64,000 bases of DNA, from sequence record MN850631.1. One strand, written 5' to 3'. The notes beneath the pieces were generated by a model, which did no database searches, had not been told where the DNA came from, and saw only the letters and a list, made by a program, of their open reading frames with translations. Source of the DNA: Escherichia phage mio. A program made the position numbers and the translations under genes. Of this stretch, positions 400 through 38,248 are shown one piece after another; position 1 is the stretch's first letter; each line of letters begins with the position of its first letter.

Positions 400-1650
400 T
401 ATCGGTTGTCCCAACCTCTGGGTCACCATCATATGTGAATAAAATATCTACCCTTCTTAACAACCTTCTTAATCTTACTCTCTATATAGTTATATAGTAC
501 TATATAGTATCTTAGTATCTATCTAGTGGTCTTAATAGCCCATCTGTATAACCCTTCTAAACACTCTTCTAACAAGCCTTCTTAACAGCCTATACAATCA
601 CCTTAACCATCCCTCTACACCTTCTTAGAAGCTCCTATACACCTCTTAATCTCTATGTCAGCTATGACACTCTCTATAGGTGTTCACTAGGTATTACTAA
701 GCCTCTATATAGACTGTTTTAACAAACTTAACAGGAATATCTTTACAGACCTTATCTCACAAGGTCTAACACGGTACTAACAAGGTATCTTATAAGCCTG
801 TTTCTACCTGTATTTTTAAAAGACTGTCTAGGTAATTATTCAGAATTTTAAAATTTTTATAAAATAGGACTATCAAGTCATTTTTTAGGGTCTTTGAAGG
901 AACTCAAAAATATCTGTAGAAGATGTATATCTGCTTGGTAGCCCTTAACAGCTCCCTTACAAGTACTTTGCAAAATTTTAAAATATCCTTAACAATCTCT
1001 TAACGGCTACTACATCCTCTTAACATCTCTTCAGAGGTCTTAACAGATTCTTAACAGAACTAACAAGGCTGTAACAAGTTCTTAACAGATGATACATGGT
1101 CTTTATAGTCTCTTAACAGATGACTAACAAGAGCTAACAAGTTAATTTTTAAGAGTTATTTTGTTAAGATAATTAACAAGTTTCTAACAAGTCTTTAATC
1201 TTTTTAACAAGCTATTAACATGGTCACTATCTCTGGTCTTATCGTTCCCTTTCCCTCTTAGTGATTCTTTAAATAGCCCTCTTAAAAGCTCTCTATAGCT
1301 CTTTGTAAGCTCTTTTAAGCCTCTTCCTAGTAATTACACCCCAACTATGTAGAAAGCTCTTTATAAGGCTTTACAGAGGCTTTAAAGGCTATGTCAAAGA
1401 CTCTTACAAGGCTTTTACGTGGTCTTAACAGAGATTTAACAAGGGACTAACAAGTTGCTAACAAGTGTCTTAAAAGCATAACTATGTAGGGATTGTTAAG
1501 AAATTGTTAAGAAAATGTTAAGGGGGCTAGCATTTACGTAACTTTTAAGCTACTTCAAAGTAACTTTATAGCCCCTTTAACATACTTTTAAGACACTAAC
1601 AAGCCCTTTTTAGTTATTCACAAGAATACTAACGAGATGATAAAGCTTAC
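400..1650. repeat. ORF-free array of short direct repeats (YTAACAR(G) more than 25 copies; TATAGT/CTATAG clusters; AT-rich AATTTTAAAAT stretches)
   Basis: Motifs CTTAACAG, CTAACAAG, TTAACAAG recur on the plus strand, densest 990-1220 and 1425-1475; no ORF of 60 aa or more in any frame between 349 and 2007. Confidence 0.6.
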
Positions 1651-2006: not shown

Positions 2007-2255
2007 TTAGTTAGTGCCTTCTTTGTCGTAGTACAGGGAGACAATTTTTTCACCCCAATAGTGAAAAGTGTAACCATCTTTAAGAACTTCCTGTTTTGTT
2101 TCTTTCCAGAACTCATCAGAAGGATTATAGTCTTTTATGGTCTGACTGATAAGACCTTTCACCATTTCAAAGGCGTTGTCAGTGCCTACAAGGTCAAATT
2201 TAACATCCAGAGAGGAAAAACCGAACTCGTTAACAGTAGCGCGGATAGTTGCCAT
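2007..2255 (-). CDS. hypothetical early protein (82 aa); track ORF 2007..2513 trimmed
   Basis: ATG at 2253-2255 preceded by AGGAGA RBS in conserved element; longer track ORF reads through the intercistronic element. Confidence 0.55.
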   Translation of the reverse strand: MATIRATVNEFGFSSLDVKFDLVGTDNAFEMVKGLISQTIKDYNPSDEFWKETKQEVLKDGYTFHYWGEKIVSLYYDKEGTN

Positions 2256-2322
2256 TTTTGAATCTCCTAGTTTAAGGGTTTTATTTAGTGGGGAGGTTAT
2301 CGCCTCCCCGTTGATTAGTAAT
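2256..2322 (-). promoter_or_regulatory. conserved intercistronic element, hairpin type A
   Basis: Core CATTTTTGAATCTCCTAGTTTAAGG..TTAGTGG plus perfect stem GGGGAGG-TTATCG-CCTCCCC (2290-2309) then GTTGATTAGTAATTTAC. Confidence 0.5.
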
Positions 2323-2586
2323 TTACTGCATGTTGGCGTATGTTGCAAGCCTTTTTTCGTTGTATTTTGTAAGAATCTCACAAGATAAAACATCGTAATT
2401 TGTAACAGCGTTGCCTTTGTCGAGGTCAAAGAATCCAAATGTTTTACCATCTTTGAATCCGACAACTTCGTAAGACTCTTTGATGATTTCACCATTGAAC
2501 AAATCGCTTTCAATGCGGTGTAATAATGCTACGTTTTCTTTGTCGGTTGCAATTTGTAAAAGTGTGGTTAATTCTACGTTTTTCAT
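2323..2586 (-). CDS. hypothetical early protein (87 aa)
   Basis: ATG at 2584-2586, RBS GGAG; flanked by conserved elements. Confidence 0.55.
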   Translation of the reverse strand: MKNVELTTLLQIATDKENVALLHRIESDLFNGEIIKESYEVVGFKDGKTFGFFDLDKGNAVTNYDVLSCEILTKYNEKRLATYANMQ

Positions 2587-2652
2587 CTTGATAACTCCAG
2601 TTTAGGACTTTATTTAGTGGGGAAGGTCATTCCCTCCCCGTTGATTGACAAT
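2587..2652 (-). promoter_or_regulatory. conserved intercistronic element, hairpin type A (imperfect stem)
   Basis: Core ..CTCCAGTTTAGGACTTTATTTAGTGG plus GGGGAAGG-TCAT-TCCCTCCCC then GTTGATTGACAATTTAC. Confidence 0.45.
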
Positions 2653-3183
2653 TTACAGATTTTTGATTGTCTCGTCAATATCTTTTTCAATATCTTTTAA
2701 AGTTTTTTCTAAGTTCTTGATATTGAACGTTAAACCTTCACCTAGAGTCTTAGAGTAACCGCTAGGGCGTAAATCATGCAGCTTGATTTCTTCCACATTG
2801 GATAAGTTTACCATCTCACCATTTGCAGCATAGGCTATAGATACAGTGTTTTCAGGCGAGTTGTAAAATTTGTTCAAGGACTTGATAGAACGTTCATAAG
2901 CCATTTTATAACCGTTTAAAAGGCTTTTAACGTGATTGTGAACGTTTTTACACTCATCTAGATAAATCTCTAAGAATAACGGTAATAATTCCGCTACAGC
3001 TTGCATAAAGTGAGAAACTACAACAGTAGAAACATTACGACGATGGACGTAATAAGCCCCGTTTTCTGATTTGGTGATTGTTGCAAAATGTACACCATTA
3101 CAACGGAATTCATAGGTATCTTTAACAGGCTTAGACATAACACTATTTGAACGAATGAAGTTGATAGCTTTAAACTTGTTCAT
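2653..3183 (-). CDS. hypothetical early protein (176 aa)
   Basis: ATG 3181-3183 with AGGAGA RBS in conserved element. Confidence 0.6.
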   Translation of the reverse strand: MNKFKAINFIRSNSVMSKPVKDTYEFRCNGVHFATITKSENGAYYVHRRNVSTVVVSHFMQAVAELLPLFLEIYLDECKNVHNHVKSLLNGYKMAYERSIKSLNKFYNSPENTVSIAYAANGEMVNLSNVEEIKLHDLRPSGYSKTLGEGLTFNIKNLEKTLKDIEKDIDETIKNL

Positions 3184-3404
3184 TTTTGAATCTCCTAGTT
3201 TAAGGACTTTACTTAGTGGGGAGGTTATCCCTCCCGTTGATTAGTAATTTACTTGTTTTGATATCTGATTGCAAGCAATTTTTTAAGCTTACCTATAAAG
3301 AATCTTTTAAGTTAATCCCTTTTAAATAAACCCCCCTCGAACAAAGTTACCAATGTCAATAGGGATTGTCAACACTTTTTTAAAAGTTTTTTGTAAGTTG
3401 TTGA
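3184..3404 (-). promoter_or_regulatory. extended intercistronic region: type A element plus additional promoter-like hexamers
   Basis: Type A core and GGGGAGG-TTAT-CCCTCCC hairpin at 3184-3250; minus-strand TTGACA hexamers at 3354-3359 and 3368-3373; 221 bp gap versus ~65-95 bp elsewhere. Confidence 0.4.
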
Positions 3405-3746
3405 TTAACTGATGAATATTTTTTCAGGTTTTACGTAGCTGATACGCTGATTTTTTAGTAGGCTATCCCATAACAAGGCGGCAATGTGCCCATATCCGGC
3501 CTCACGCAGCCCCTTCATCGTTTCAACTCGACTCTCAAAACGATTTGCGTAATACTCGCTATTAAGTGTCGTTTTGTTCCCTTCGTTATCTGTATGGATG
3601 ATTTGCATCACTTGAAAGGGGCTGACATCCTCGCCTTTGTTCCACTGCTCAAAGTATTTTAGGCACTGCATAGGTGACATCTTATCACTGACTTGAGTTG
3701 ACCAAGATGAATTTTCTTTATTGGTAATTACGGTTACATAAGCCAT
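3405..3746 (-). CDS. hypothetical early protein (113 aa)
   Basis: ATG 3744-3746 with RBS in conserved element. Confidence 0.6.
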   Translation of the reverse strand: MAYVTVITNKENSSWSTQVSDKMSPMQCLKYFEQWNKGEDVSPFQVMQIIHTDNEGNKTTLNSEYYANRFESRVETMKGLREAGYGHIAALLWDSLLKNQRISYVKPEKIFIS

Positions 3747-3835
3747 TTTTGAATCTCCAGTTTAGGACTTTACTTAGTGGGGAAGGTCATTCCCTCCCCG
3801 TTGATTGACAATTTACAGACTTTTATCAGGCTTGT
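3747..3835 (-). promoter_or_regulatory. conserved intercistronic element, hairpin type A
   Basis: Core CATTTTTGAATCTCCAGTTTAGGACTTTACTTAGTGG plus GGGGAAGG..TCCCTCCCC then GTTGATTGACAATTTAC. Confidence 0.45.
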
Positions 3836-4069
3836 CTAGTCTTTTTCAATGATAATTTCATATTGACCATCAACACTGTCAAAATAGATTCCATCGTCAT
3901 CTTCTGTCTTAAAGTAACATTGTATGTCATCACTGGCGGGGTAGTCTTGTCTTGCTATCTGACAAACTTGAATAGCATTTTCTTTACTTCCTGTGAACTC
4001 CTCAAGCCCTTTAAAATCGCATGAATGACCATTACAGATGGAAAGGATGAGGTAAACGGTTGTAAGCAT
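3836..4069 (-). CDS. hypothetical early protein (77 aa), Cys-containing, acidic
   Basis: ATG 4067-4069; upstream spacer 4070-4132 lacks the conserved core (divergent element). Confidence 0.5.
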   Translation of the reverse strand: MLTTVYLILSICNGHSCDFKGLEEFTGSKENAIQVCQIARQDYPASDDIQCYFKTEDDDGIYFDSVDGQYEIIIEKD

Positions 4070-4132
4070 GATTTAAGCCCTCTAAATGGCCCTGTATGGG
4101 CCTTAAGTTGGAAATTAGTGTCTTTGTACTGA

Positions 4133-4696
4133 TTAACCTAAAAGGTCTTTTAAATTGCGTTCTGTGATGTTTGCCGTGATTTTATCCAGCAGGTCACAAA
4201 ACACGGAACTATCACCGCTATTCTGTACAATTTTCGCCATACTTAACAAATCATCGTCAACATAGCCTAAATTGCGGTTAGTTGCATCTGGTACAAAGAA
4301 AGGCGCATACATCGCACTAAATTTCGTTGAGTGGATACTAACAATCCAATTTTTATCAAAGTATCCGGTAAAGCTGGCAATTTCGCTCATGTTGTCACAA
4401 GAATAATCGTCCTCAAGTTCTTCCTCTGGGATATCCATTTCGATAACAATCACTTCCTGCGTTTCCATTTGGAAAGCTGCTGTGATAAGCCCCGACTCTA
4501 AGGCGCTTTGAATGCAGCGTTCACGGATATAAGAATCTTCCTCATCTTCCAGACATTCCGTTTTGATAACCTTGTTCATTGGGTAAACGTAGAAACAATC
4601 GTCCATGTAGGAACAGTTCCAGATACCTTCAGGTTTATCGCCACCATTCAGCAGGTTTACAAAGTTTTTGAGTGTAGTTCCGTGATAGCATTTCAT
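4133..4696 (-). CDS. hypothetical early protein (187 aa), acidic
   Basis: ATG 4694-4696 with AGGAGA RBS in conserved element. Confidence 0.6.
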   Translation of the reverse strand: MKCYHGTTLKNFVNLLNGGDKPEGIWNCSYMDDCFYVYPMNKVIKTECLEDEEDSYIRERCIQSALESGLITAAFQMETQEVIVIEMDIPEEELEDDYSCDNMSEIASFTGYFDKNWIVSIHSTKFSAMYAPFFVPDATNRNLGYVDDDLLSMAKIVQNSGDSSVFCDLLDKITANITERNLKDLLG

Positions 4697-4788
4697 TTTT
4701 GAATCTCCTAGTTTAAGGACTTGATTTAGTGGTAAAGCTCTTTATCTGGGGCTTACTTTATCGAACTATAAGCCCCTTGTAAAGTACT
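4697..4788 (-). promoter_or_regulatory. conserved intercistronic element, hairpin type B
   Basis: Core CATTTTTGAATCTCCTAGTTTAAGGACTTGATTTAGTGG plus AAAGCTCTTTATCT-GGGGCTTA-N13-TAAGCCCC-TTGTAAAGTACTTT. Confidence 0.5.
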
Positions 4789-4992
4789 TTATCGGTTATT
4801 TTTGATAACTTTTAAAACTGCGCGGTATCCTAAGCAATAAGAATCACCGAAGAGCGACCGACCCATGAATGAATCCTCTTTGATATCCTTTGCAGTGACA
4901 GTCTTTTCTACGCCGTGAAAAAGAACTATATCGCCAACTTTGATATCTTTGATATGAGTAGTTTCAATGTTTAAACCGTTGATAATAGCCAT
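4789..4992 (-). CDS. hypothetical early protein (67 aa)
   Basis: ATG 4990-4992 with RBS in conserved element. Confidence 0.5.
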   Translation of the reverse strand: MAIINGLNIETTHIKDIKVGDIVLFHGVEKTVTAKDIKEDSFMGRSLFGDSYCLGYRAVLKVIKNNR

Positions 4993-5092
4993 TCTTGAAT
5001 CTCCTAGTTTAAGGACTTTACTTAGTGGGGAGGTTATCCCTCCCGTTGATTAGTAATTTACTTGTTTTAAAAATCAATGTCAACAAAATTTT
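4993..5092 (-). promoter_or_regulatory. conserved intercistronic element, hairpin type A, with sigma70-like hexamers upstream on minus strand
   Basis: Core plus GGGGAGG-TTAT-CCCTCCC; minus strand reads TTGACA-17nt-TAAATT just upstream of hairpin. Confidence 0.5.
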
Positions 5093-5497
5093 TTAGAGTT
5101 CTGCATAAATTGCATCGCAGATACCACGAAAATCATGATTTGTCAAATTACGTTGTAACCAAGTGGCGAAAAAGTCAGCGATTGCAAAGTTAGCGTCATA
5201 CTCGACAGATAGCCACACTTTAACAGCAAACCGAAACATTTTCAAATCAAGCTCTTTATTCATTATCTTAGATTTGCCTAACATGTCGGTCATTTCATAT
5301 TGTGCACCGTCTAGCGTGATACCTGCTGCAACGTCAGCCAATGAGTTTTTTACGTTTTCAACGTCTAAGATAACGCTTTGAATCTTCCCAATAATGTTGT
5401 GCAATGTTTCGTCCGGTGCTGATGACGTAATAACATTAATCCGGTTAACGGTCAAACGTGCTTTTAAGATTGATAACTCGCGATTATTAATAGCCAT
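5093..5497 (-). CDS. hypothetical early protein (134 aa)
   Basis: ATG 5495-5497; RBS in variant core CATTTTTTAGTTCTCCAATTTAGG. Confidence 0.6.
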   Translation of the reverse strand: MAINNRELSILKARLTVNRINVITSSAPDETLHNIIGKIQSVILDVENVKNSLADVAAGITLDGAQYEMTDMLGKSKIMNKELDLKMFRFAVKVWLSVEYDANFAIADFFATWLQRNLTNHDFRGICDAIYAEL

Positions 5498-5583
5498 TTT
5501 TTAGTTCTCCAATTTAGGATTTAGTAGTAAAGCTCTTTATCTGGGGCTTACTTTATCGAACTATAAGCCCCTTGTAAAGTACT
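5498..5583 (-). promoter_or_regulatory. conserved intercistronic element, hairpin type B
   Basis: Variant core plus GGGGCTTA-CTTTATCGAACTA-TAAGCCCC then TTGTAAAGTACTTT. Confidence 0.5.
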
Positions 5584-5856
5584 TTATACTAAATGCAGCT
5601 TTTTGCCTTTTACCATGATGTAACTTGTTGCGCTATTGCTATGCACATCTTGATAAATTCTGCGCAAACGGCCTTCGTAGTATACTTTCCAACTGGTTGG
5701 AATCTTTTTCCCGTATCCTGTAGCAGTTTTTTGGAGTCCTGCAAGTTGCCAATCTAAGATATGTTGTTCGGCTTGTAAATCCTCGAAGTGCATTACACCG
5801 TTCACATAGTGGCGCAAAGTTACATTTAGAGTACGACCGTTGTTAGTAGTATACAT
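5584..5856 (-). CDS. hypothetical early protein (90 aa)
   Basis: ATG 5854-5856 with RBS in conserved element. Confidence 0.55.
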   Translation of the reverse strand: MYTTNNGRTLNVTLRHYVNGVMHFEDLQAEQHILDWQLAGLQKTATGYGKKIPTSWKVYYEGRLRRIYQDVHSNSATSYIMVKGKKLHLV

Positions 5857-5943
5857 TTTCTAATCTCCTAGTTTAAGGACTTTACTTAGTGGGGAGGTCA
5901 TCCCTCCCGTTGATTAGTAATTTACTTGTTTTAAAAACCAAAA
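5857..5943 (-). promoter_or_regulatory. conserved intercistronic element, hairpin type A
   Basis: Core CATTTTCTAATCTCCTAGTTTAAGGACTTTACTTAGTGG plus GGGGAGG-TCAT-CCCTCCC; minus strand TTGATT-17nt-TAAATT upstream. Confidence 0.5.
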
Positions 5944-6276
5944 TCAAGAGAAATTTTTTCGTTTGCTCAATTCTTGAACAATTACAGCGTAGTAGTCTTT
6001 TAAGTCACTGATATTTAAAGCATTTATCAGTGAATTATAATCATCGACTAACTGAAAATCATCTTTGAAGATATCACTTATCTGATAGGTTTTCGCTTTG
6101 AATCTGAAGCTCATTTCTAGCCGCTTTATTTGCTCATCACTTAAACGCTCCAGAAAGCTCATTACAAGGCTACTATTGACCTGTTGCGTGATTGCCTTAC
6201 TTGCCAGATTGTAGGCGCTGTAAGCCTTATAAAGTGCTATAATGGCGATGATTGCAGTGATGCCCATCATTAGCAT
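5944..6276 (-). CDS. hypothetical early protein (110 aa) with N-terminal hydrophobic helix
   Basis: ATG 6274-6276; N-terminus MLMMGITAIIAIIALYKAY; overlaps next ORF by 7 nt. Confidence 0.55.
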   Translation of the reverse strand: MLMMGITAIIAIIALYKAYSAYNLASKAITQQVNSSLVMSFLERLSDEQIKRLEMSFRFKAKTYQISDIFKDDFQLVDDYNSLINALNISDLKDYYAVIVQELSKRKNFS

Positions 6277-6566
6277 GGTGTTACCTCTCTGCGTGATACT
6301 TTACCATTTACAGTTATCTCATAAGCTTCTAATAAATCACTTTCAGATTTAACAGGGCTTTTAAAAGTATCATCATAAACATTAATTTGCAATACAGGCT
6401 TTTTATACTCCCTGCAACTATTCCATAAGCAAATTACTACGCGACGGCCTTTTATTTTGCCGTGTAACCATTCCATAACATCATGACTATTTCTTGATGT
6501 CTCGATAAAATCGATTTTATTGAGTAATTTGCTTAGATTTTCACGCACTTGATTTGATAATTTCAT
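6270..6566 (-). CDS. hypothetical early protein (98 aa)
   Basis: ATG 6564-6566 with RBS in conserved element. Confidence 0.55.
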   Translation of the reverse strand: MKLSNQVRENLSKLLNKIDFIETSRNSHDVMEWLHGKIKGRRVVICLWNSCREYKKPVLQINVYDDTFKSPVKSESDLLEAYEITVNGKVSRREVTPC

Positions 6567-6658
6567 TTTTGAATCTCCTAGTTTAAGGGCTTTATTTGAT
6601 AAATCTCTTTATCTGGGGCTATCCTACCAGCTTGTTAGCCCCGTGTAAAGAAATCTAT
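6567..6658 (-). promoter_or_regulatory. conserved intercistronic element, hairpin type B variant
   Basis: Core CATTTTTGAATCTCCTAGTTTAAGGGCTTTATTTG plus GGGGCTA-N14-TAGCCCC then GTGTAAAGAAATC. Confidence 0.45.
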
Positions 6659-7171
6659 TTAGTTCTTAAAGATATTCATCACTGAATCTTTCAACGATTC
6701 CAAACGTTCTAATACTTCAGATTCTGCGTCTGCGTTGTTCACCTCTTCTTTTAGTCTATCCTCTAAATCATCGCCGTCACGATAGCACCAATCGAAAGCG
6801 TATCCAAGATAAAAACTTTCTAAAACCGTGCTACCGTTTGCATCCACAACTTTCGCGGCAAGGCTATACTCTGAAGCCTCTAAATCTCTTTCTAGTTCTT
6901 TCTGTAAGCTTGTGTAAGCCTCTTTCGATGGATTCTCACGGCCTTGTTTTGCATAGTCACTTGAAAGCTGCTTAAGGCTGTAATGCAAAGGGATTGCATA
7001 TTTAAACTCATTACGCTGACAGTTGGTGTTTTTAATAGTTACACCGCCTTGATGGTCATCTGTAAACTCCCAATTATCCATATTATGGCTTGCTTCGTAG
7101 CAATTAACAGCCTCATAAATGATGGAAAATTTTTCTTTTACAACTTCAAAGGTAGCGTCTACAGTTTTCAT
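6659..7171 (-). CDS. hypothetical early protein (170 aa), acidic C-terminal half
   Basis: ATG 7169-7171 with RBS in conserved element. Confidence 0.6.
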   Translation of the reverse strand: MKTVDATFEVVKEKFSIIYEAVNCYEASHNMDNWEFTDDHQGGVTIKNTNCQRNEFKYAIPLHYSLKQLSSDYAKQGRENPSKEAYTSLQKELERDLEASEYSLAAKVVDANGSTVLESFYLGYAFDWCYRDGDDLEDRLKEEVNNADAESEVLERLESLKDSVMNIFKN

Positions 7172-7266
7172 TTTTGAATCTCCTAGTTTAAGGACTTGAT
7201 TTAGTGGTAAAGCTCTTTATCTGGGGCTTAAGATATCAACTTTTAAGCCCCTTGTAAAGTACTTTA
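7172..7266 (-). promoter_or_regulatory. conserved intercistronic element, hairpin type B
   Basis: Core plus GGGGCTTAA-N13-TTAAGCCCC then TTGTAAAGTACTTT. Confidence 0.5.
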
Positions 7267-7524
7267 TCAGATTAAATTGCCAGTTAATGATAAGTGCATT
7301 TTATAGCCTTTTTTGGTAAAAACGTTCACTTTACCGAGTGATTTTACACCTTTAAAAAGGTTGTTTGAACTGCGTTTTAAGGTTAGTTGCTTATCAGCTT
7401 TCACGCCCCACCTTACAGCAGTTTGTTTTCCGTTGTCAACCACTTTTCCGCATAACTTTTTAGCCATAACGCGAGCGTCATCACGAGTCTTTGCAGTAAT
7501 TACAACGTTTTTGATAATAGCCAT
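7267..7524 (-). CDS. hypothetical early protein (85 aa), lysine-rich; start moved from TTG (7539) to ATG (7524)
   Basis: ATG 7522-7524 with GGAGA RBS inside conserved core; track start codon is TTG. Confidence 0.5.
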   Translation of the reverse strand: MAIIKNVVITAKTRDDARVMAKKLCGKVVDNGKQTAVRWGVKADKQLTLKRSSNNLFKGVKSLGKVNVFTKKGYKMHLSLTGNLI

Positions 7525-7613
7525 TTTTAAGTTCTCCAATTTAGGATTTAGTGGTAAAGCTCTTTATCTGGGGCTTACTTTATCGAACTATAAGCCCCTT
7601 GTAAAGTACTTTA
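7525..7613 (-). promoter_or_regulatory. conserved intercistronic element, hairpin type B
   Basis: Variant core CATTTTTAAGTTCTCCAATTTAGG plus GGGGCTTA-CTTTATCGAACTA-TAAGCCCC. Confidence 0.5.
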
Positions 7614-7994
7614 TTAGTTAATTTTGAAAATTGTCACATAACCATCGCTCCCGATGATTTGTGATACCCCAGCTTTTTCTACTTGATAGCCCATATTTTC
7701 AAGATGGTAAACAGCATCATCGTAACCATATGCGCCACCCTGATAACGTCGCTTATCACATTTTATCAGGTTTTTACCGCGTCCAGCAAGTGCATTCAGT
7801 ACGGCTTTTTCACTTGATAGTGTACCATCTATCATGGTTGCCGTGTAATGGTTGATTTTATTCCCATTAATATCATACTTAAAATTGAATGCGTGAACAA
7901 TAATCAATTTACCGTTAAATTTTTCATCAAGTGACTTCTCCAGTGCGTTGCGGAAGTTGTCTTTATTGATGAATTTCGGTGCACGATAAGCCAT
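7614..7994 (-). CDS. hypothetical early protein (126 aa)
   Basis: ATG 7992-7994 with RBS in conserved element. Confidence 0.6.
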   Translation of the reverse strand: MAYRAPKFINKDNFRNALEKSLDEKFNGKLIIVHAFNFKYDINGNKINHYTATMIDGTLSSEKAVLNALAGRGKNLIKCDKRRYQGGAYGYDDAVYHLENMGYQVEKAGVSQIIGSDGYVTIFKIN

Positions 7995-8082
7995 TTTAGA
8001 ATCTCCTAGTTTAAGGTAAGTTAGTAAAGCTCTTTATCTGGGGCTTAAGATATCAGCTTTTAAGCCCCTTGTAAAGTACTTT
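7995..8082 (-). promoter_or_regulatory. conserved intercistronic element, hairpin type B
   Basis: Core CATTTTAGAATCTCCTAGTTTAAGG plus GGGGCTTAA-N13-TTAAGCCCC then TTGTAAAGTACTTT. Confidence 0.5.
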
Positions 8083-8289
8083 TTATATATCGTAATAGTA
8101 AACCGCTGTCTGTTTTATATGTCGCTTTGTATTCTTTGTTAGGTAGCAATTAGAGTTAATTGCCGTTTCTACATAGTTGCAATAATCAGCTTCTGATATT
8201 CTACGCCATGCGCCGCACACTTGCATATAAAAACGTTTTGCCTTTGTGTTAACGTTGGTTGTAACCATCAATTCGCGACTGTACATCAT
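8083..8289 (-). CDS. hypothetical early protein (68 aa); first gene of the leftward array
   Basis: ATG 8287-8289; upstream partial core CATTTTGGATTCTCCAGTTTAGGAAG. Confidence 0.5.
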   Translation of the reverse strand: MMYSRELMVTTNVNTKAKRFYMQVCGAWRRISEADYCNYVETAINSNCYLTKNTKRHIKQTAVYYYDI

Positions 8290-8539
8290 TTTGGATTCTC
8301 CAGTTTAGGAAGTGGGCTTGCTTGCCCGTCTGATGCAAATATTAGATAACCATACTCAAAGAGTCAATAGGAATTTTAAAAATATTTTTGCAAGAATTGT
8401 AATGAAACGGGTGCGCGCGACTACCACAAAACAGAACTACAATCAAGAATTATTTTTCAATCCGCTACAAATTTTTCTGTTGACTTTTATTTCCAGATGT
8501 GGTAGCCTTGTGAGAAATGGCGACATTCCCACCTGCACC

Positions 8540-8725
8540 CACCTACCTGCACAATTCTAAAATGATTTTTCTTGCCCGACCTGAGTGGGTTCTGCACGTT
8601 TTGAAAATGAAAAAGCTCTTTGGAGATTACCTGCACAGTTTGAAAATGAATTTTCTCTTTGGAGTTCAAAATTCTCTCTACAGATTTCTCTACAGAACTC
8701 TACCTGCACAATTCTAAAATGAAAA
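8540..8725. repeat. direct repeats in ORF-free gap (CTACCTGCACAATTCTAAAATGA twice; two tandem ~38 bp CTGCACNTTTTGAAAATGA...CTCTTTGGAG units)
   Basis: Identical 23-mer at 8543-8565 and 8700-8722; related units at about 8590-8627 and 8628-8665. Confidence 0.55.
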
Positions 8726-8795
8726 AGCCCTCCTTACCTGAAAAATTTACCAGATAAGAAAGGCTTAGTCTATTGTGAATATTCTACAGAGTTTC

Positions 8796-9581
8796 TTAGT
8801 TCTTTGCGTCTAAGAAGGTAACTTCCGGTGAAGAGAAAATTCCCTCAACATCCTCATCAGTTCTTGCATAGATATATGTATCTGCATCACTGCCAAATGT
8901 TACTGCAATTCTGTGATTGCTCTTCGACAGGTGGGTAACTAGAGCGTTACTTAGAGACATCTTTTCAACCGGAGGGTTACTTTGATGTACCTTACCTTTT
9001 CTTCGTCTGAAGAGGGTAACTGCATCGTCAGTGAACACTACTACACCTGCAAAGTATTCTGGTTCACAGTAGTTCTTCCAACCTGAGCGTAACTTGTGGT
9101 ACATCTCTCCTTCGTAGACATATAGATAGACATCTACACTCTTCATCACCTGATTAATGATAACGGTGACGGCTTGAGGGTCAAGTCCACCGATACCTGC
9201 ACCAATCATAGGTAAACCAACTTTCTTCAACTGATTAACTTCACAGTATCTGTTAAGTTGCTTCAAAGATGACTCTAAAGCACTGTATCGGGCATCTTTA
9301 CCAGTCTTAAGCTGAGTGTAAAGATTGGCTATACGGCCTTGTTTTAAACGTGCTACAGAGAAATTGCCTAGCAAATTTTCACAGGGTTTGTGACCTATAC
9401 CACCTGCATACAGATAAACTTCTGTATCGGTCTCATATGCTTTTGGGTAAAGTTTAGAAATCTTATCAGCGATACCTGCACCCATTAAGTTCATACAGTT
9501 GCAACCGTGACCAATGATATCAAACTTACCTTTATCAAATGCGGAGAAGATATCCCCATTGATGATTTTTACAATACCCAT
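8796..9581 (-). CDS. macrodomain protein (TARG1/DarG-like ADP-ribose binding/hydrolase fold) with ~100 aa C-terminal extension
   Basis: N-terminal GDIFSAFDKGKFDIIGHGCNCMNLMGAGIA...GLPMIGAGIGGL matches the macrodomain pattern; ATG 9579-9581 overlaps upstream stop. Confidence 0.65.
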   Translation of the reverse strand: MGIVKIINGDIFSAFDKGKFDIIGHGCNCMNLMGAGIADKISKLYPKAYETDTEVYLYAGGIGHKPCENLLGNFSVARLKQGRIANLYTQLKTGKDARYSALESSLKQLNRYCEVNQLKKVGLPMIGAGIGGLDPQAVTVIINQVMKSVDVYLYVYEGEMYHKLRSGWKNYCEPEYFAGVVVFTDDAVTLFRRRKGKVHQSNPPVEKMSLSNALVTHLSKSNHRIAVTFGSDADTYIYARTDEDVEGIFSSPEVTFLDAKN

Positions 9582-37991: not shown

Positions 37992-38248
37992 GTAAGCCTC
38001 TTTTAAGTAACTATTAAGTTTTAATCTTTTATCTTAACGTATTCTATACGTTATACTTTAAAGCTTTTTAAAAGCTATTAAATAATCTTTTAAGAGTTTT
38101 AAAGTATCTGTATAGTTAAACTGTTAAGTAACCTTTTAAGTAGAAACCCACTTCGCAAAGATTAACACCTTGTCAAGTACATTGTCAACTTGCTTTTTAT
38201 AATTTTTTGCAGTAATGTATGAGGTTAATGATTTTAGAGGGAGTAAAA

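What the first reader, a model, noticed from the sequence alone, without database searches (positions are those of the whole stretch)
8290..8795. Direct-repeat cluster in the 500 bp gap between the early array and the macrodomain operon
An exact 23 bp repeat CTACCTGCACAATTCTAAAATGA occurs at 8543-8565 and 8700-8722, with two tandem ~38 bp related units between them. The two track ORFs here (8312..8560, 8517..8717) look like by-products of the repeats. The site is where rightmost early transcription and the upstream operon meet, so it could be an operator array or a recombination hotspot.
Basis: seen in the sequence. Interest (0 to 1): 0.45.

Follow-up and report, generated by a model that had tools for sequence, protein, structure and literature searches.

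The report
Conserved four-repeat array in Felix O1-like phages
A 500-base non-coding gap in a Felix O1-like phage holds four same-direction copies of a ~36-base unit, kept almost unchanged in every genus of the phage subfamily, so it is a real, undescribed control element of unknown job and not a chance repeat.

Summary
The exact 23-mer lies at 8543-8565 and 8700-8722, with two related units between. All four share the core CTGCACNNTTNNAAAATGA, on the + strand (0.43 matches expected in the window).

The window is a Felixounavirus. The gap lies between the intrinsic terminator of the macro-domain operon and the sigma-70 promoter that opens the early small-gene array; all these genes are on the minus strand.

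- **Conservation:** the array is found in Felixounavirus, Suspvirus, Mooglevirus and Erwinia Kolesnikvirus, always in the same orientation. In the Erwinia phage the flanking macro protein is only 45% identical and the rest of the gap does not align.
- **Uniqueness:** the motif occurs only here in the ~86-kb genome.
- **Context:** an invariant plus-strand TTGACT promoter-like site reads into the array.
- **Excluded:** it is not the terminal repeat (that maps to ~940-1527), not coding, has no conserved RNA fold, and has no bacterial ToxI-like counterpart.

Best reading (0.4): recognition sites on DNA for one sequence-specific protein, acting as an origin-like or promoter-node control element. 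Rivals are a repeat-containing plus-strand RNA, and a T5 injection-stop-like boundary 7.6 kb from the genome end. Function is unresolved.

The parts
8725..8766 (-). Intrinsic terminator of the macro-domain operon (Felix O1 't13'). Its U-tract (TTTTTCATTTT on the minus strand) is the reverse complement of boxes B/W5 of unit 4.
   Evidence: 17-pair stem followed by a T-run. Table 2 of PMC3185647 lists it. The minus-strand fold has z = -3.9, driven by this hairpin. The arm on the unit-4 side is invariant, while the loop and the other arm are replaced in Moogle, L167 and Si3.
8701..8737 (+). Unit 4 (core CTGCACAATTCTAAAATGA at 8704-8722); its tail overlaps the terminator stem.
   Evidence: Core mean pairwise identity is 0.90 over 23 distinct gap sequences.
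8675..8696 (+). Second small repeat inside the 73-bp spacer: TCTCTACAGA twice, 12 bp apart (8675-8684 and 8687-8696).
   Evidence: Read. Conserved as CTGTAGAGA / CTGTACAGA-type pairs in Felixounavirus, SUSP2 and Si3. Absent from phiEa21-4, where the units abut.
8628..8664 (+). Unit 3 (core CTGCACAGTTTGAAAATGA at 8631-8649; tail ATTTTCTCTTTGGAG).
   Evidence: Core identity 0.93, tail 0.97.
8589..8625 (+). Unit 2 (core CTGCACGTTTTGAAAATGA at 8592-8610; tail AAAAGCTCTTTGGAG).
   Evidence: Core identity 0.93, tail 0.97.
8544..8580 (+). Unit 1 (core CTGCACAATTCTAAAATGA at 8547-8565; tail TTTTTCTTGCCCGA).
   Evidence: Core identity 0.93. The following spacer 8581-8591 is only 0.55.
8486..8542 (.). 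Variable segment with two alleles. This window carries allele A (TGTGGTAGCCT... then C-rich, with an extra CCTGCAC at 8531-8537). Felix O1, wV8, SUSP2 and Moogle carry a G-run allele (GGGGAGAGGGGGAGTAAGAGGGGG...).
   Evidence: Mean pairwise identity 0.60. phiEa21-4 also has G-runs just before its unit 1.
8480..8508 (+). Plus-strand promoter-like element P(+) that reads into the array: TTGACT (8480-8485), 17-bp spacer ending in TGG, then TAGCCT (8503-8508).
   Evidence: The -35 hexamer is invariant (1.00) and the 33 bp upstream (8447-8479) are 0.94 identical, the best-conserved part of the gap. The G-run allele has TTGACT-17-TAAGAG/TAATAG. phiEa21-4 has TTGACG-18-TATACT in the same orientation. 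Transcription is not shown.
8418..8446 (-). Possible second minus-strand promoter, back-to-back with P(+): TTGATT (8446-8441), 17-bp spacer ending in TGG, then TAGTCG (8423-8418).
   Evidence: Identity 0.82. The -10 is weak; this is inferred only.
8389..8408 (+). Degenerate fifth copy of the unit (TGCAAGAATTGTAATGAAAC), 23 bp upstream of the -35 of the early promoter.
   Evidence: Picked up as an extra motif hit about 159 bp before unit 1 in Felix O1-type loci. Its TGCA is not conserved across genera, so it is probably a relic.
8339..8388 (-). Early-array promoter with an A+T-rich upstream element: TTGACT (8367-8362), 17-bp spacer, TAATAT (8344-8339). It drives gene 8289..8083.
   Evidence: TTGAC and TA..T are invariant across all seven genomes including phiEa21-4. 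It is the 9th least stable 50-bp window of the 64 kb.

Best explanation
The four units are recognition sites on DNA for one sequence-specific protein. That protein is either a core phage protein or a host protein shared by Enterobacterales. The sites form a single cis-acting element per genome, at the inner border of the terminal early-gene block. Each unit has three boxes: TGCAC(A/G), then AAAATGA seven bases later, then five A/T bases and a C/G-containing box (CTTTGGAG, CTTGCC(C/A)GA or CCCTCC).

Shown:
- The sites are real and directional.
- They occur only once in the genome.
- They are under purifying selection across four genera.
- They lie between a terminator and a node of sigma-70 promoter-like elements, one of which points into the array.

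Inferred: a protein binds them, and the bound array either (a) marks a replication origin helped by transcription from the adjacent promoter, roughly as in lambda or T7; or (b) controls the promoter node, for example by blocking plus-strand transcription from running antisense into the macro-domain operon, or by tuning the first early promoters.

I put about 0.2 on (a) and 0.2 on (b). No binding protein has been identified.
For: - **Four perfect cores, none elsewhere.** The rest of the window and the remaining ~23 kb of the closest relative, OPT-SAL01, have no other good match.
- **Found in all four genera.** Felixounavirus, Suspvirus, Mooglevirus and Kolesnikvirus carry the same array in the same orientation and the same gene context.
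- **The motif transfers across genera.** The motif defined in Felixounavirus hits the phiEa21-4 gap four times, against 0.02 expected. The neighbouring macro protein is only 45% identical there, and the rest of the gap is unalignable apart from the early promoter.
- **Conservation tracks the units.** Unit cores score 0.90-0.93 and tails 0.84-0.97, against 0.55-0.60 for spacer 1-2 and the variable segment.
- **No RNA-structure signal.** The plus strand folds no better than shuffles (z = -0.6), and nine sequences give no compensatory pairs.
- **Not coding**.
- **Origin-like surroundings.** A+T-rich, low-stability DNA and strong promoters lie within 160-200 bp. The replisome genes are T7-like (family A polymerase, primase/helicase, exonuclease, ligase), and such replisomes can start from transcripts.
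Against: - **No binding protein identified.** The neighbouring genes have no Pfam domain apart from Macro, and the first downstream gene differs between relatives.
- **Spacing is irregular.** It is 45/39/73, 45/41/75 or 39/37/37 bp, with no helical phasing, unlike classical iterons or cooperative operators.
- **No dyad symmetry.**
- **A better origin candidate exists.** The divergent, very A+T-rich region at ~38.0-38.1 kb, next to the replication genes, is at least as good on general grounds. GC skew shows nothing at 8.5 kb.
- **An RNA reading fits equally well.** Strict co-orientation, tolerance of spacer indels, and placement between an invariant promoter-like element and a hairpin would also be expected of an RNA-level element.
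- **The array is not fixed.** Si3 is a viable phage with only three units.
Confidence: 0.4

Rival explanations
1. The array works as RNA. P(+) (8480-8508) makes a plus-strand, unstructured non-coding RNA of about 250 nt that carries four copies of CUGCACnnUUnnAAAAUGA and ends near the 8725-8766 hairpin. The repeats would bind or titrate an RNA-binding protein or ribonuclease. One version is a decoy laid out like a type III antitoxin (promoter, 37-45-nt repeats each with an A-rich AAAAU site, then a hairpin), comparable to the pseudo-ToxI of phage PhiTE.
For: - The plus-strand -35 hexamer is invariant and its upstream 33 bp are 0.94 identical. A same-orientation promoter-like site exists in phiEa21-4.
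- All units are co-oriented in every genus, and spacer length varies freely.
- phiEa21-4 units are contiguous at 37-39 nt. ToxI repeats in E. coli and Pectobacterium plasmids have periods of 35-36 nt.
- The pattern scan happened to recover two genuine Lachnospiraceae toxIN loci whose 37-nt repeats contain TGCACAG..AAAATGA.
- ToxN/AbiQ genes are common on E. coli and Salmonella plasmids: 55 and 12 records.
Against: - No transcript data exist.
- The -10 of the G-run allele (TAAGAG/TAATAG) lacks the conserved final T.
- The hairpin has no U-tail on the plus strand.
- No conserved fold or covariation.
- No Rfam hit, even at E <= 10.
- No toxin gene lies downstream.
- No similarity to enterobacterial ToxI variants beyond shuffles.
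- Nothing similar in 72,556 plasmids or 5,426 E. coli genomes, and no Enterobacterales locus in the genome-collection scan.
- The Lachnospiraceae resemblance was imposed by the search pattern.
Confidence: 0.2
2. The array marks a boundary comparable to the T5 injection-stop signal. The terminal ~7 kb of the genome (the early small-gene array, transcribed toward the physical end) would enter and act first. The repeat cluster at its inner edge would hold or mark the DNA, perhaps through a host protein such as DnaA.
For: - The physical end is fixed at about window 940-1527: Pr103Blw has an annotated 581-bp terminal repeat, and at least 7 independent records start exactly at window 1527.
- The array lies 7.6-7.8 kb from that end, about 8.7% of the genome. 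T5's first-step transfer covers 7.9%.
- Like T5 Repeat Region 3, it is a conserved non-coding repeat region next to poorly conserved small early ORFs.
- phiEa21-4 units begin with CTATGCACA or TTATGCACG, 8 of 9 matches to the DnaA box TT(A/T)TNCACA.
Against: - Two-step DNA transfer has never been reported for Felix O1-like phages.
- Which end enters first is unknown.
- The Felixounavirus versions (ACCTGCACA) match the DnaA box at only 6 of 9 positions.
- T5's site lies inside a 10-kb terminal repeat, with paired boxes in inverted repeats, and neither holds here.
- A1/A2 homologues were not looked for.
Confidence: 0.05
3. The units have no function of their own. They are relics of repeated duplication of the terminator tail region (GC-rich arm plus TTTTTCATTTT plus downstream sequence), and they persist because relatives recombine often across this gap.
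For: - Boxes B/W5 are the reverse complement of the usual terminator tail of this phage (CTTTTTCATTT at t5 and t13).
- Unit 4 overlaps the terminator.
- A degenerate fifth copy exists.
- Copy number is 3 in Si3.
- Mosaic breakpoints fall at unit edges.
Against: - Four copies each retain 17 of 19 core positions between Felixounavirus and Erwinia phages, although the surrounding non-coding DNA is unalignable and the adjacent protein is 45% identical.
- The TGCAC box is not part of any terminator tail and is absent after t5.
- Spacers inside the array diverge while cores do not.
Confidence: 0.07
4. The gap is the direct terminal repeat or packaging site of the genome. I raised this during the work because two public records (KhF1, TH10) are broken here.
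For: - The KhF1 record starts near window 8362 and ends near 8738, with a 377-bp overlap between its two ends.
- The TH10 record ends overlap by 74 nt at window 8441-8488.
- Felix O1-like phages do have 580-610-bp terminal repeats.
Against: - The KhF1 overlap is only 89.7% identical, whereas true terminal repeats are identical.
- The annotated Pr103Blw repeat and the starts of at least 7 records map to window ~940-1527, 7 kb away.
- TH10's 74-nt overlap looks like an assembler k-mer overlap.
Confidence: 0.02

Closest known systems
Iteron arrays of replication origins (lambda ori with four O-protein sites; P1, F and pSC101 iterons; T4 oriE)
   Same: Three to five direct repeats of about 19 bp in one orientation. 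They occur once per genome, in or next to A+T-rich DNA and active promoters, and are conserved where the flanks are not.
   Different: Units are 37-45 (and 73) bp apart with no helical phasing. There is no internal dyad. No initiator gene is adjacent or recognisable. Origin activity is untested, and another A+T-rich divergent region at ~38 kb is an equally good origin candidate.
T7 primary origin (tandem promoters followed by an A+T-rich stretch, primed by transcription)
   Same: T7-like replisome genes. A promoter-like element points into an A/T-block-rich non-coding stretch near the border of the early region, within about 10-15% of a genome end.
   Different: The promoter here would be a host sigma-70 type. 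T7's origin has no conserved 19-bp repeats. Nothing is shown experimentally.
ToxI and the pseudo-ToxI locus of phage PhiTE (type III toxin-antitoxin RNA; PMC3475682)
   Same: Promoter, then tandem repeats of about 36-45 nt in one orientation, each with an invariant A-rich motif, then a hairpin. It lies in an intergenic region of a lytic myovirus, and copy number varies between relatives.
   Different: No sequence similarity to any enterobacterial ToxI. No cognate bacterial locus was found. No toxin gene, no conserved fold, one spacer of 73 nt, and a hairpin that lacks a U-tail on that strand.
T5 injection-stop region (Repeat Region 3 of the left terminal repeat; Davison, bioRxiv 10.1101/866236)
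   Same: A conserved non-coding repeat cluster at the inner edge of a terminal block of small, variable early genes, about 8% from the genome end. DnaA-box-like sequences occur in the Erwinia members.
   Different: It is not inside a long terminal repeat, and it has no inverted-repeat architecture or paired consensus DnaA boxes. Two-step transfer is unknown in this group.
Promoter/stem-loop cassettes between early genes (T4-type 'PeSL' cassettes, cited from my own knowledge; wV8 DR_1 to DR_9)
   Same: Repeated non-coding sequence in the early region of a lytic myovirus. The conserved islands serve as recombination joints.
   Different: Those cassettes recur between most early genes. The TGCAC...AAAATGA unit occurs only in this one gap and is not a promoter or a stem-loop.

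Membership tests
Iteron-type replication origin | Three or more direct repeats of about 17-22 bp in one orientation | tested here: met
   Four 19-bp cores, all on the + strand. The same holds in four genera.
Iteron-type replication origin | Regular spacing or helical phasing of the repeats | tested here: not met
   Start-to-start spacings are 45/39/73, 45/41/75, 39/37/37 and 45/75 in Si3.
Iteron-type replication origin | Adjacent A+T-rich unwinding element | tested here: inconclusive
   8339-8388 is the 9th least stable 50-bp window of the 64 kb, but it is the early promoter's upstream element and lies 160 bp from unit 1. Less stable windows exist at 38.0-38.1 kb.
Iteron-type replication origin | Cognate initiator protein, usually encoded nearby | tested here: not met
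   The ten neighbouring ORFs have no Pfam domain apart from Macro, and PHROGs gives 'unknown function'. The first half of the Bas63 annotation lists no initiator.
Iteron-type replication origin | Replication initiates here | not testable with these tools
   This needs marker-frequency analysis, 2D gels or an ori-trap plasmid. GC skew follows transcription and is uninformative.
Type III antitoxin RNA (ToxI-like / pseudo-ToxI) | Promoter, tandem 34-45-nt repeats, then a terminator, all on one strand | tested here: inconclusive
   P(+) is predicted only. Units are 37-45 nt, but one interval is 73 nt. The hairpin has no plus-strand U-tail.
Type III antitoxin RNA (ToxI-like / pseudo-ToxI) | Sequence similarity to a bacterial antitoxin that it could mimic | tested here: not met
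   Local alignments to three enterobacterial ToxI types score no better than shuffles. blastn against plasmids and E. coli genomes found nothing. No Enterobacterales locus appeared in the genome scan.
Type III antitoxin RNA (ToxI-like / pseudo-ToxI) | Toxin gene downstream (for a complete system) | tested here: not met
   The downstream plus strand is antisense to the macro gene, with no ORF.
Type III antitoxin RNA (ToxI-like / pseudo-ToxI) | Match to a curated RNA family or a conserved fold | tested here: not met
   Rfam at E <= 10 gave nothing relevant. RNAalifold gave -7.6 kcal/mol with 0 compensatory pairs.
Direct terminal repeat / packaging end | Coincides with the physical genome ends | tested here: not met
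   The ends map to window ~940-1527.
T5-type injection-stop signal | Non-coding repeat region at the inner border of a terminal early-gene block, about 8% from the end | tested here: met
   It lies 7.6-7.8 kb from the end at ~940, about 8.7% of ~87 kb. This is a positional resemblance only.
T5-type injection-stop signal | Paired consensus DnaA boxes within inverted repeats, inside a long terminal repeat | tested here: not met
   Felixounavirus boxes match 6 of 9 positions and Erwinia boxes 8 of 9. The repeats are direct, not inverted, and the terminal repeat is ~590 bp and elsewhere.
T5-type injection-stop signal | Two-step DNA transfer | not testable with these tools
   No report was found in the searches run here, though none asked specifically about two-step transfer in Felix O1-like phages. 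It needs an experiment.
Operator array of a transcription regulator | Sites overlap or adjoin the regulated promoter and recur at co-regulated promoters | tested here: not met
   Units start about 40 bp downstream of the P(+) -10 and lie 100-300 bp upstream of the minus-strand promoters. The motif is absent from all other early promoters.
Tandem sigma-70 promoters | -35 and -10 hexamers at 16-18 bp in each unit, conserved across relatives | tested here: not met
   phiEa21-4 gives TTGCCA-17-TAAAAT/GAAAAT across two unit junctions. In Felixounavirus the same boxes are 25 bp or 73 bp apart at two of three junctions.

The most novel reading that the evidence does not exclude
Ounavirinae phages make a short early non-coding RNA from the plus strand of this gap. 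Its four 37-45-nt repeats, each with an invariant AAAAUGA, would act as a decoy for a host ribonuclease or RNA-binding defence protein, by the same logic as type III antitoxins and pseudo-ToxI. This would be a subfamily-wide, fixed RNA counter-defence rather than a laboratory escape mutation. An alternative novel reading is that the array is a T5-like DNA-entry boundary for a 7.6-kb first-acting early block.
Probability: 0.15. Interest if true: 0.75.

Novelty: new member of a known kind. Interest (0 to 1): 0.45.

Why it matters
Felix O1-like phages are used for Salmonella typing, biocontrol and therapy cocktails. Even so, the Felix O1 genome paper (PMC3185647) says that their temporal control of transcription is unknown, and no origin of replication has been mapped for them in the papers I found.

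This array is the only non-coding sequence I found, apart from one early promoter, that is kept from E. coli and Salmonella phages to Erwinia phages. It occurs once per genome. It lies at the border of the terminal host-takeover gene block.

That makes it a specific, cheap target for deletion, pull-down and transcript-mapping experiments. Such experiments could identify the group's origin, a master control site, or an RNA counter-defence. People engineering these genomes should also avoid disrupting it.

Tried and rejected
- **Terminal repeat or packaging site.** Suggested by the KhF1 and TH10 record ends. Rejected by the Pr103Blw annotation and the starts of at least 7 records at window 1527.
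- **Coding.** Frames are not conserved.
- **Known RNA family.** No relevant Rfam hit; the CRISPR-DR57 match (E = 0.076) lies inside the macro gene.
- **Structured RNA.** Plus strand z = -0.6; the minus-strand signal is the terminator only; no covariation.
- **Tandem array in the strict sense.** Tandem Repeats Finder finds nothing.
- **Tandem sigma-70 promoters.** They fit phiEa21-4 but not Felixounavirus spacing.
- **Other promoter types or host sites.** Sigma-54, sigma-32, CRP, FNR, IHF, Fis, NtrC, Fur and boxA were compared by eye with consensus sequences from memory. None fits all four units. This is not a formal test.
- **DnaA boxes.** Near-consensus only in Erwinia phages.
- **ToxI mimicry.** Searches found no cognate.
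- **GC-skew origin signal.** The skew simply follows gene orientation.
- **Helical phasing.** None.
- **Motif at other promoters or elsewhere in the genome.** None.
- **More distant phages with the array.** Two scans of viral contigs returned only Ounavirinae plus unrelated repeats.
- **Neighbouring genes as the binder.** No domains, and the first downstream gene is not conserved.
- **Literature.** Nothing on this array, on an origin, or on transcript maps for the group.
Full report
**What is there**

The window is a Felix O1-like myovirus. The best match is Salmonella phage OPT-SAL01, 98.5% identical over 2.5 kb, and 254 related records exist, mostly Escherichia and Salmonella Felixounavirus.

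Region 8290-8795 is a 506-bp gap with no credible gene. All flanking genes are on the minus strand. The macro-domain protein (8796..9581; Pfam Macro) ends the upstream operon. The 68-aa ORF 8083..8289 is the first gene of a long array of small genes of unknown function.

On the minus strand the gap begins with a strong intrinsic terminator (8766-8725). This is terminator t13 of the Felix O1 paper. The gap ends with a sigma-70 promoter that has an A+T-rich upstream element: TTGACT at 8367-8362, 17 bp, TAATAT at 8344-8339.

**The repeats**

It is part of a four-member family with the common core CTGCACNNTTNNAAAATGA at 8547, 8592, 8631 and 8704, all on the + strand. With up to two mismatches there are 7 window matches against 0.43 expected, and only these four are perfect.

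Each unit runs on for about 15 more bases: five A/T, then CTTTGGAG, CTTGCCCGA or CCCTCC. Start-to-start spacing is 45, 39 and 73 bp, so Tandem Repeats Finder is silent.

Other features in and around the array:
- The 73-bp interval holds a second small repeat, TCTCTACAGA twice, 12 bp apart.
- A degenerate fifth copy lies at 8389-8408.
- Boxes B/W5 (AAAATGAAAAAG) are the reverse complement of the usual terminator tail of this phage, and unit 4 overlaps the terminator stem.
- The TGCAC box is not part of a terminator tail and is absent after terminator t5.

**Conservation**

The gap is conserved in 288 phage records. In the Erwinia phages sampled in that listing, blastn aligns only window ~8548-8650, which is the array.

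I fetched the orthologous gaps of wV8, AYO145A, Felix O1, SUSP2 (Suspvirus), Moogle (Mooglevirus) and phiEa21-4 (Kolesnikvirus). Each has the macro gene, a 460-530-bp gap and then small genes, and each has four units in the same orientation. Spacings are 45/39/73, 45/41/75 and 39/37/37 bp.

The Felixounavirus motif hits the phiEa21-4 locus four times against 0.02 expected. The adjacent macro protein is only 45% identical there. Apart from the early promoter, the rest of that gap does not align.

Over 23 distinct gaps from Felixounavirus, Suspvirus and Mooglevirus, mean pairwise identity by segment is:

| Segment | Identity |
|---|---|
| Unit cores | 0.90-0.93 |
| Unit tails | 0.84-0.97 |
| Spacer between units 1 and 2 | 0.55 |
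| Variable segment 8486-8542 | 0.60 |

Purifying selection on the units is therefore well supported.

The motif occurs nowhere else in the window or in the remaining 23 kb of OPT-SAL01. Scans of viral contigs found it only in Ounavirinae. Salmonella phage Si3 has three units, next to a different macro allele and a different terminator.

**An overlooked neighbour**

The best-conserved piece of the whole gap is not the array. It is 8447-8485, with identity 0.94 over 8447-8479 and 1.00 over the hexamer TTGACT at 8480-8485.

On the plus strand this hexamer is followed by a 17-bp spacer ending in TGG and then TAGCCT, a reasonable extended -10 promoter that points into the array. About half of the relatives carry a different, G-run-rich allele, in which the same spacing leads to TAAGAG or TAATAG. 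phiEa21-4 has TTGACG-18-TATACT in the same orientation.

Back-to-back with it is a weaker minus-strand candidate: TTGATT, 17 bp, TAGTCG.

On sequence grounds, then, the array lies between a plus-strand promoter-like element and the terminator hairpin, which faces the other way. No transcript data exist for this group.

**What it is not**

- **Not coding.** The two listed ORFs and wV8's gp013 lose their frames in relatives.
- **Not a known RNA.** Rfam gives nothing relevant.
- **Not a structured RNA.** Plus-strand folding equals that of shuffles, and RNAalifold on nine sequences finds no compensatory pair.
- **Not the terminal repeat.** I suspected this because the KhF1 and TH10 records break here and because Felix O1-like phages have 580-610-bp terminal repeats. 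However, the annotated repeat of Pr103Blw and the first base of at least seven independent records map to window ~940-1527. KhF1's 377-bp overlap is only 89.7% identical and looks like an assembly artefact.

This result does fix the physical map. The early array is transcribed toward the genome end, and the repeat cluster lies 7.6-7.8 kb from that end, about 8.7% of the genome.

**The antitoxin idea**

Units of 37-45 nt, each with an invariant AAAAU, placed between a promoter and a hairpin, recall type III antitoxin RNAs and the pseudo-ToxI of phage PhiTE.

A two-unit pattern scan of one genome per bacterial species found 44 loci, none from Enterobacterales. Two of the 44 are genuine Lachnospiraceae toxIN loci, with a promoter, two 37-nt repeats, a terminator and a ToxN/AbiQ gene.

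ToxN genes are common on E. coli and Salmonella plasmids, so I read their ToxI repeats. The phage array resembles none of them beyond shuffled controls. blastn of the array against 72,556 plasmids and 5,426 E. coli genomes found nothing. The idea survives only as an architectural resemblance.

**Origin or control site?**

For an origin:
- Unique, co-oriented repeats.
- Nearby low-stability A+T-rich DNA and adjacent promoters.
- A T7-like replisome, which can use transcripts as primers.

Against an origin:
- Spacing is irregular and unphased.
- No initiator gene is recognisable.
- The skew profile is silent at 8.5 kb.
- A more A+T-rich divergent region lies at 38.0-38.1 kb, beside the replication genes.

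For a promoter-node control site:
- It lies immediately downstream of P(+), upstream of the early promoters, and abuts the terminator.

Against it:
- There is no dyad symmetry.
- No copies occur at the other early promoters.

**Verdict**

The finding is real and biologically meaningful. It is a subfamily-wide, single-copy, directional array of four (sometimes three) ~36-bp units, and I found no description of it in the accessible literature. wV8's annotated DR_6 lies elsewhere in the gap, and the repeats that the Felix O1 paper spells out are different ones.

My ranking:
- DNA-level protein recognition sites (0.4, split about evenly between origin-like and promoter-node control).
- A repeat-bearing plus-strand RNA (0.2).
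- Relic duplications (0.07).
- A T5 injection-stop-like boundary (0.05).
- Terminal repeat (0.02).

The rest is unassigned. 'Recombination hotspot' is true only in the passive sense that mosaic joints fall at the conserved unit edges.

Noticed in passing
window ~940-1527: This is the direct terminal repeat and physical end of the genome. The annotated 581-bp repeat of Pr103Blw maps here, and at least seven independent GenBank records begin exactly at window 1527 (reading downward) with a second copy at their other end. The early gene array is therefore transcribed toward the genome end.
   Followed up: partly
window ~2200-8100 (e.g. 2250-2315, 3181-3241, 3742-3805, 4694-4792, 5492-5587, 6564-6660, 7169-7267, 7519-7615, 7992-8082): Sixty- to 100-bp intergenic cassettes (stem-loop plus TTTACA/TTGACA promoter) recur between most small early genes. 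They correspond to wV8's DR_1 to DR_9 and to the 57- and 39-bp repeats of Felix O1, and they resemble T4-type promoter/stem-loop shuffling cassettes.
   Followed up: partly
window 8486-8542: This segment next to unit 1 has two alleles. About half of the relatives carry the allele seen here (TGTGGTAGCCT..., C-rich on the + strand). The other half, and the other genera, carry a block rich in G-runs on the + strand, of the kind that can form G-quadruplexes (GGGGAGAGGGGGAGTAAGAGGGGGAGAGGGG). The strand of the G-runs is reversed between the alleles.
   Followed up: partly
L003/L006 (KT184313.1, phage KhF1, record ends): The two ends of the record overlap by 377 bp at only 89.7% identity, across window ~8362-8738. 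This is probably a mis-assembly or a mixed population, not a terminal repeat.
   Followed up: yes
L144 (Salmonella phage Si3) 3560-4560: Si3 has only three units. Its macro-domain allele is divergent, it has a new terminator, and the breakpoint falls right after unit 2. The last unit is still fused to the terminator tail.
   Followed up: yes
L196 ~818-1418 (minus orientation) and L203 555-1145: These are two Lachnospiraceae toxIN loci, found by accident: a sigma-70 promoter, two 37-nt repeats (AGGTGATGCACAGCC(C/T)T(A/T)AAATGAGCGAGT...), a terminator and a ToxN/AbiQ-like ORF.
   Followed up: partly
L199, L208, L216, L230, L234 and similar genome-scan loci: Long tandem arrays of a 21-nt unit, such as TTGCACTTCGTGCAAATGATG in the Eubacteriales loci, turn up in MAGs from several groups (Eubacteriales, Prevotellaceae, Caldilineaceae). 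Their nature is unknown and they are unrelated to the phage array.
   Followed up: no
window 38000-38130: Two of the five least stable 50-bp windows of the 64 kb lie here, at the GC-skew switch between divergent operons. By the gene order of the Bas63 relative, this is probably the gap between the DNA polymerase gene and the primase/helicase operon. It is a plausible alternative origin or early promoter region.
   Followed up: no
window 8984-9020, minus strand: A weak Rfam match to CRISPR-DR57 (22.7 bits, E = 0.076, below the gathering score) lies inside the macro-domain gene. It is most likely chance.
   Followed up: no
window 8796-9581: The macro-domain protein carries a ~110-aa C-terminal extension with no Pfam match. 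The extension does not align between this phage and phiEa21-4, and the Si3 protein differs across its C-terminal part.
   Followed up: no
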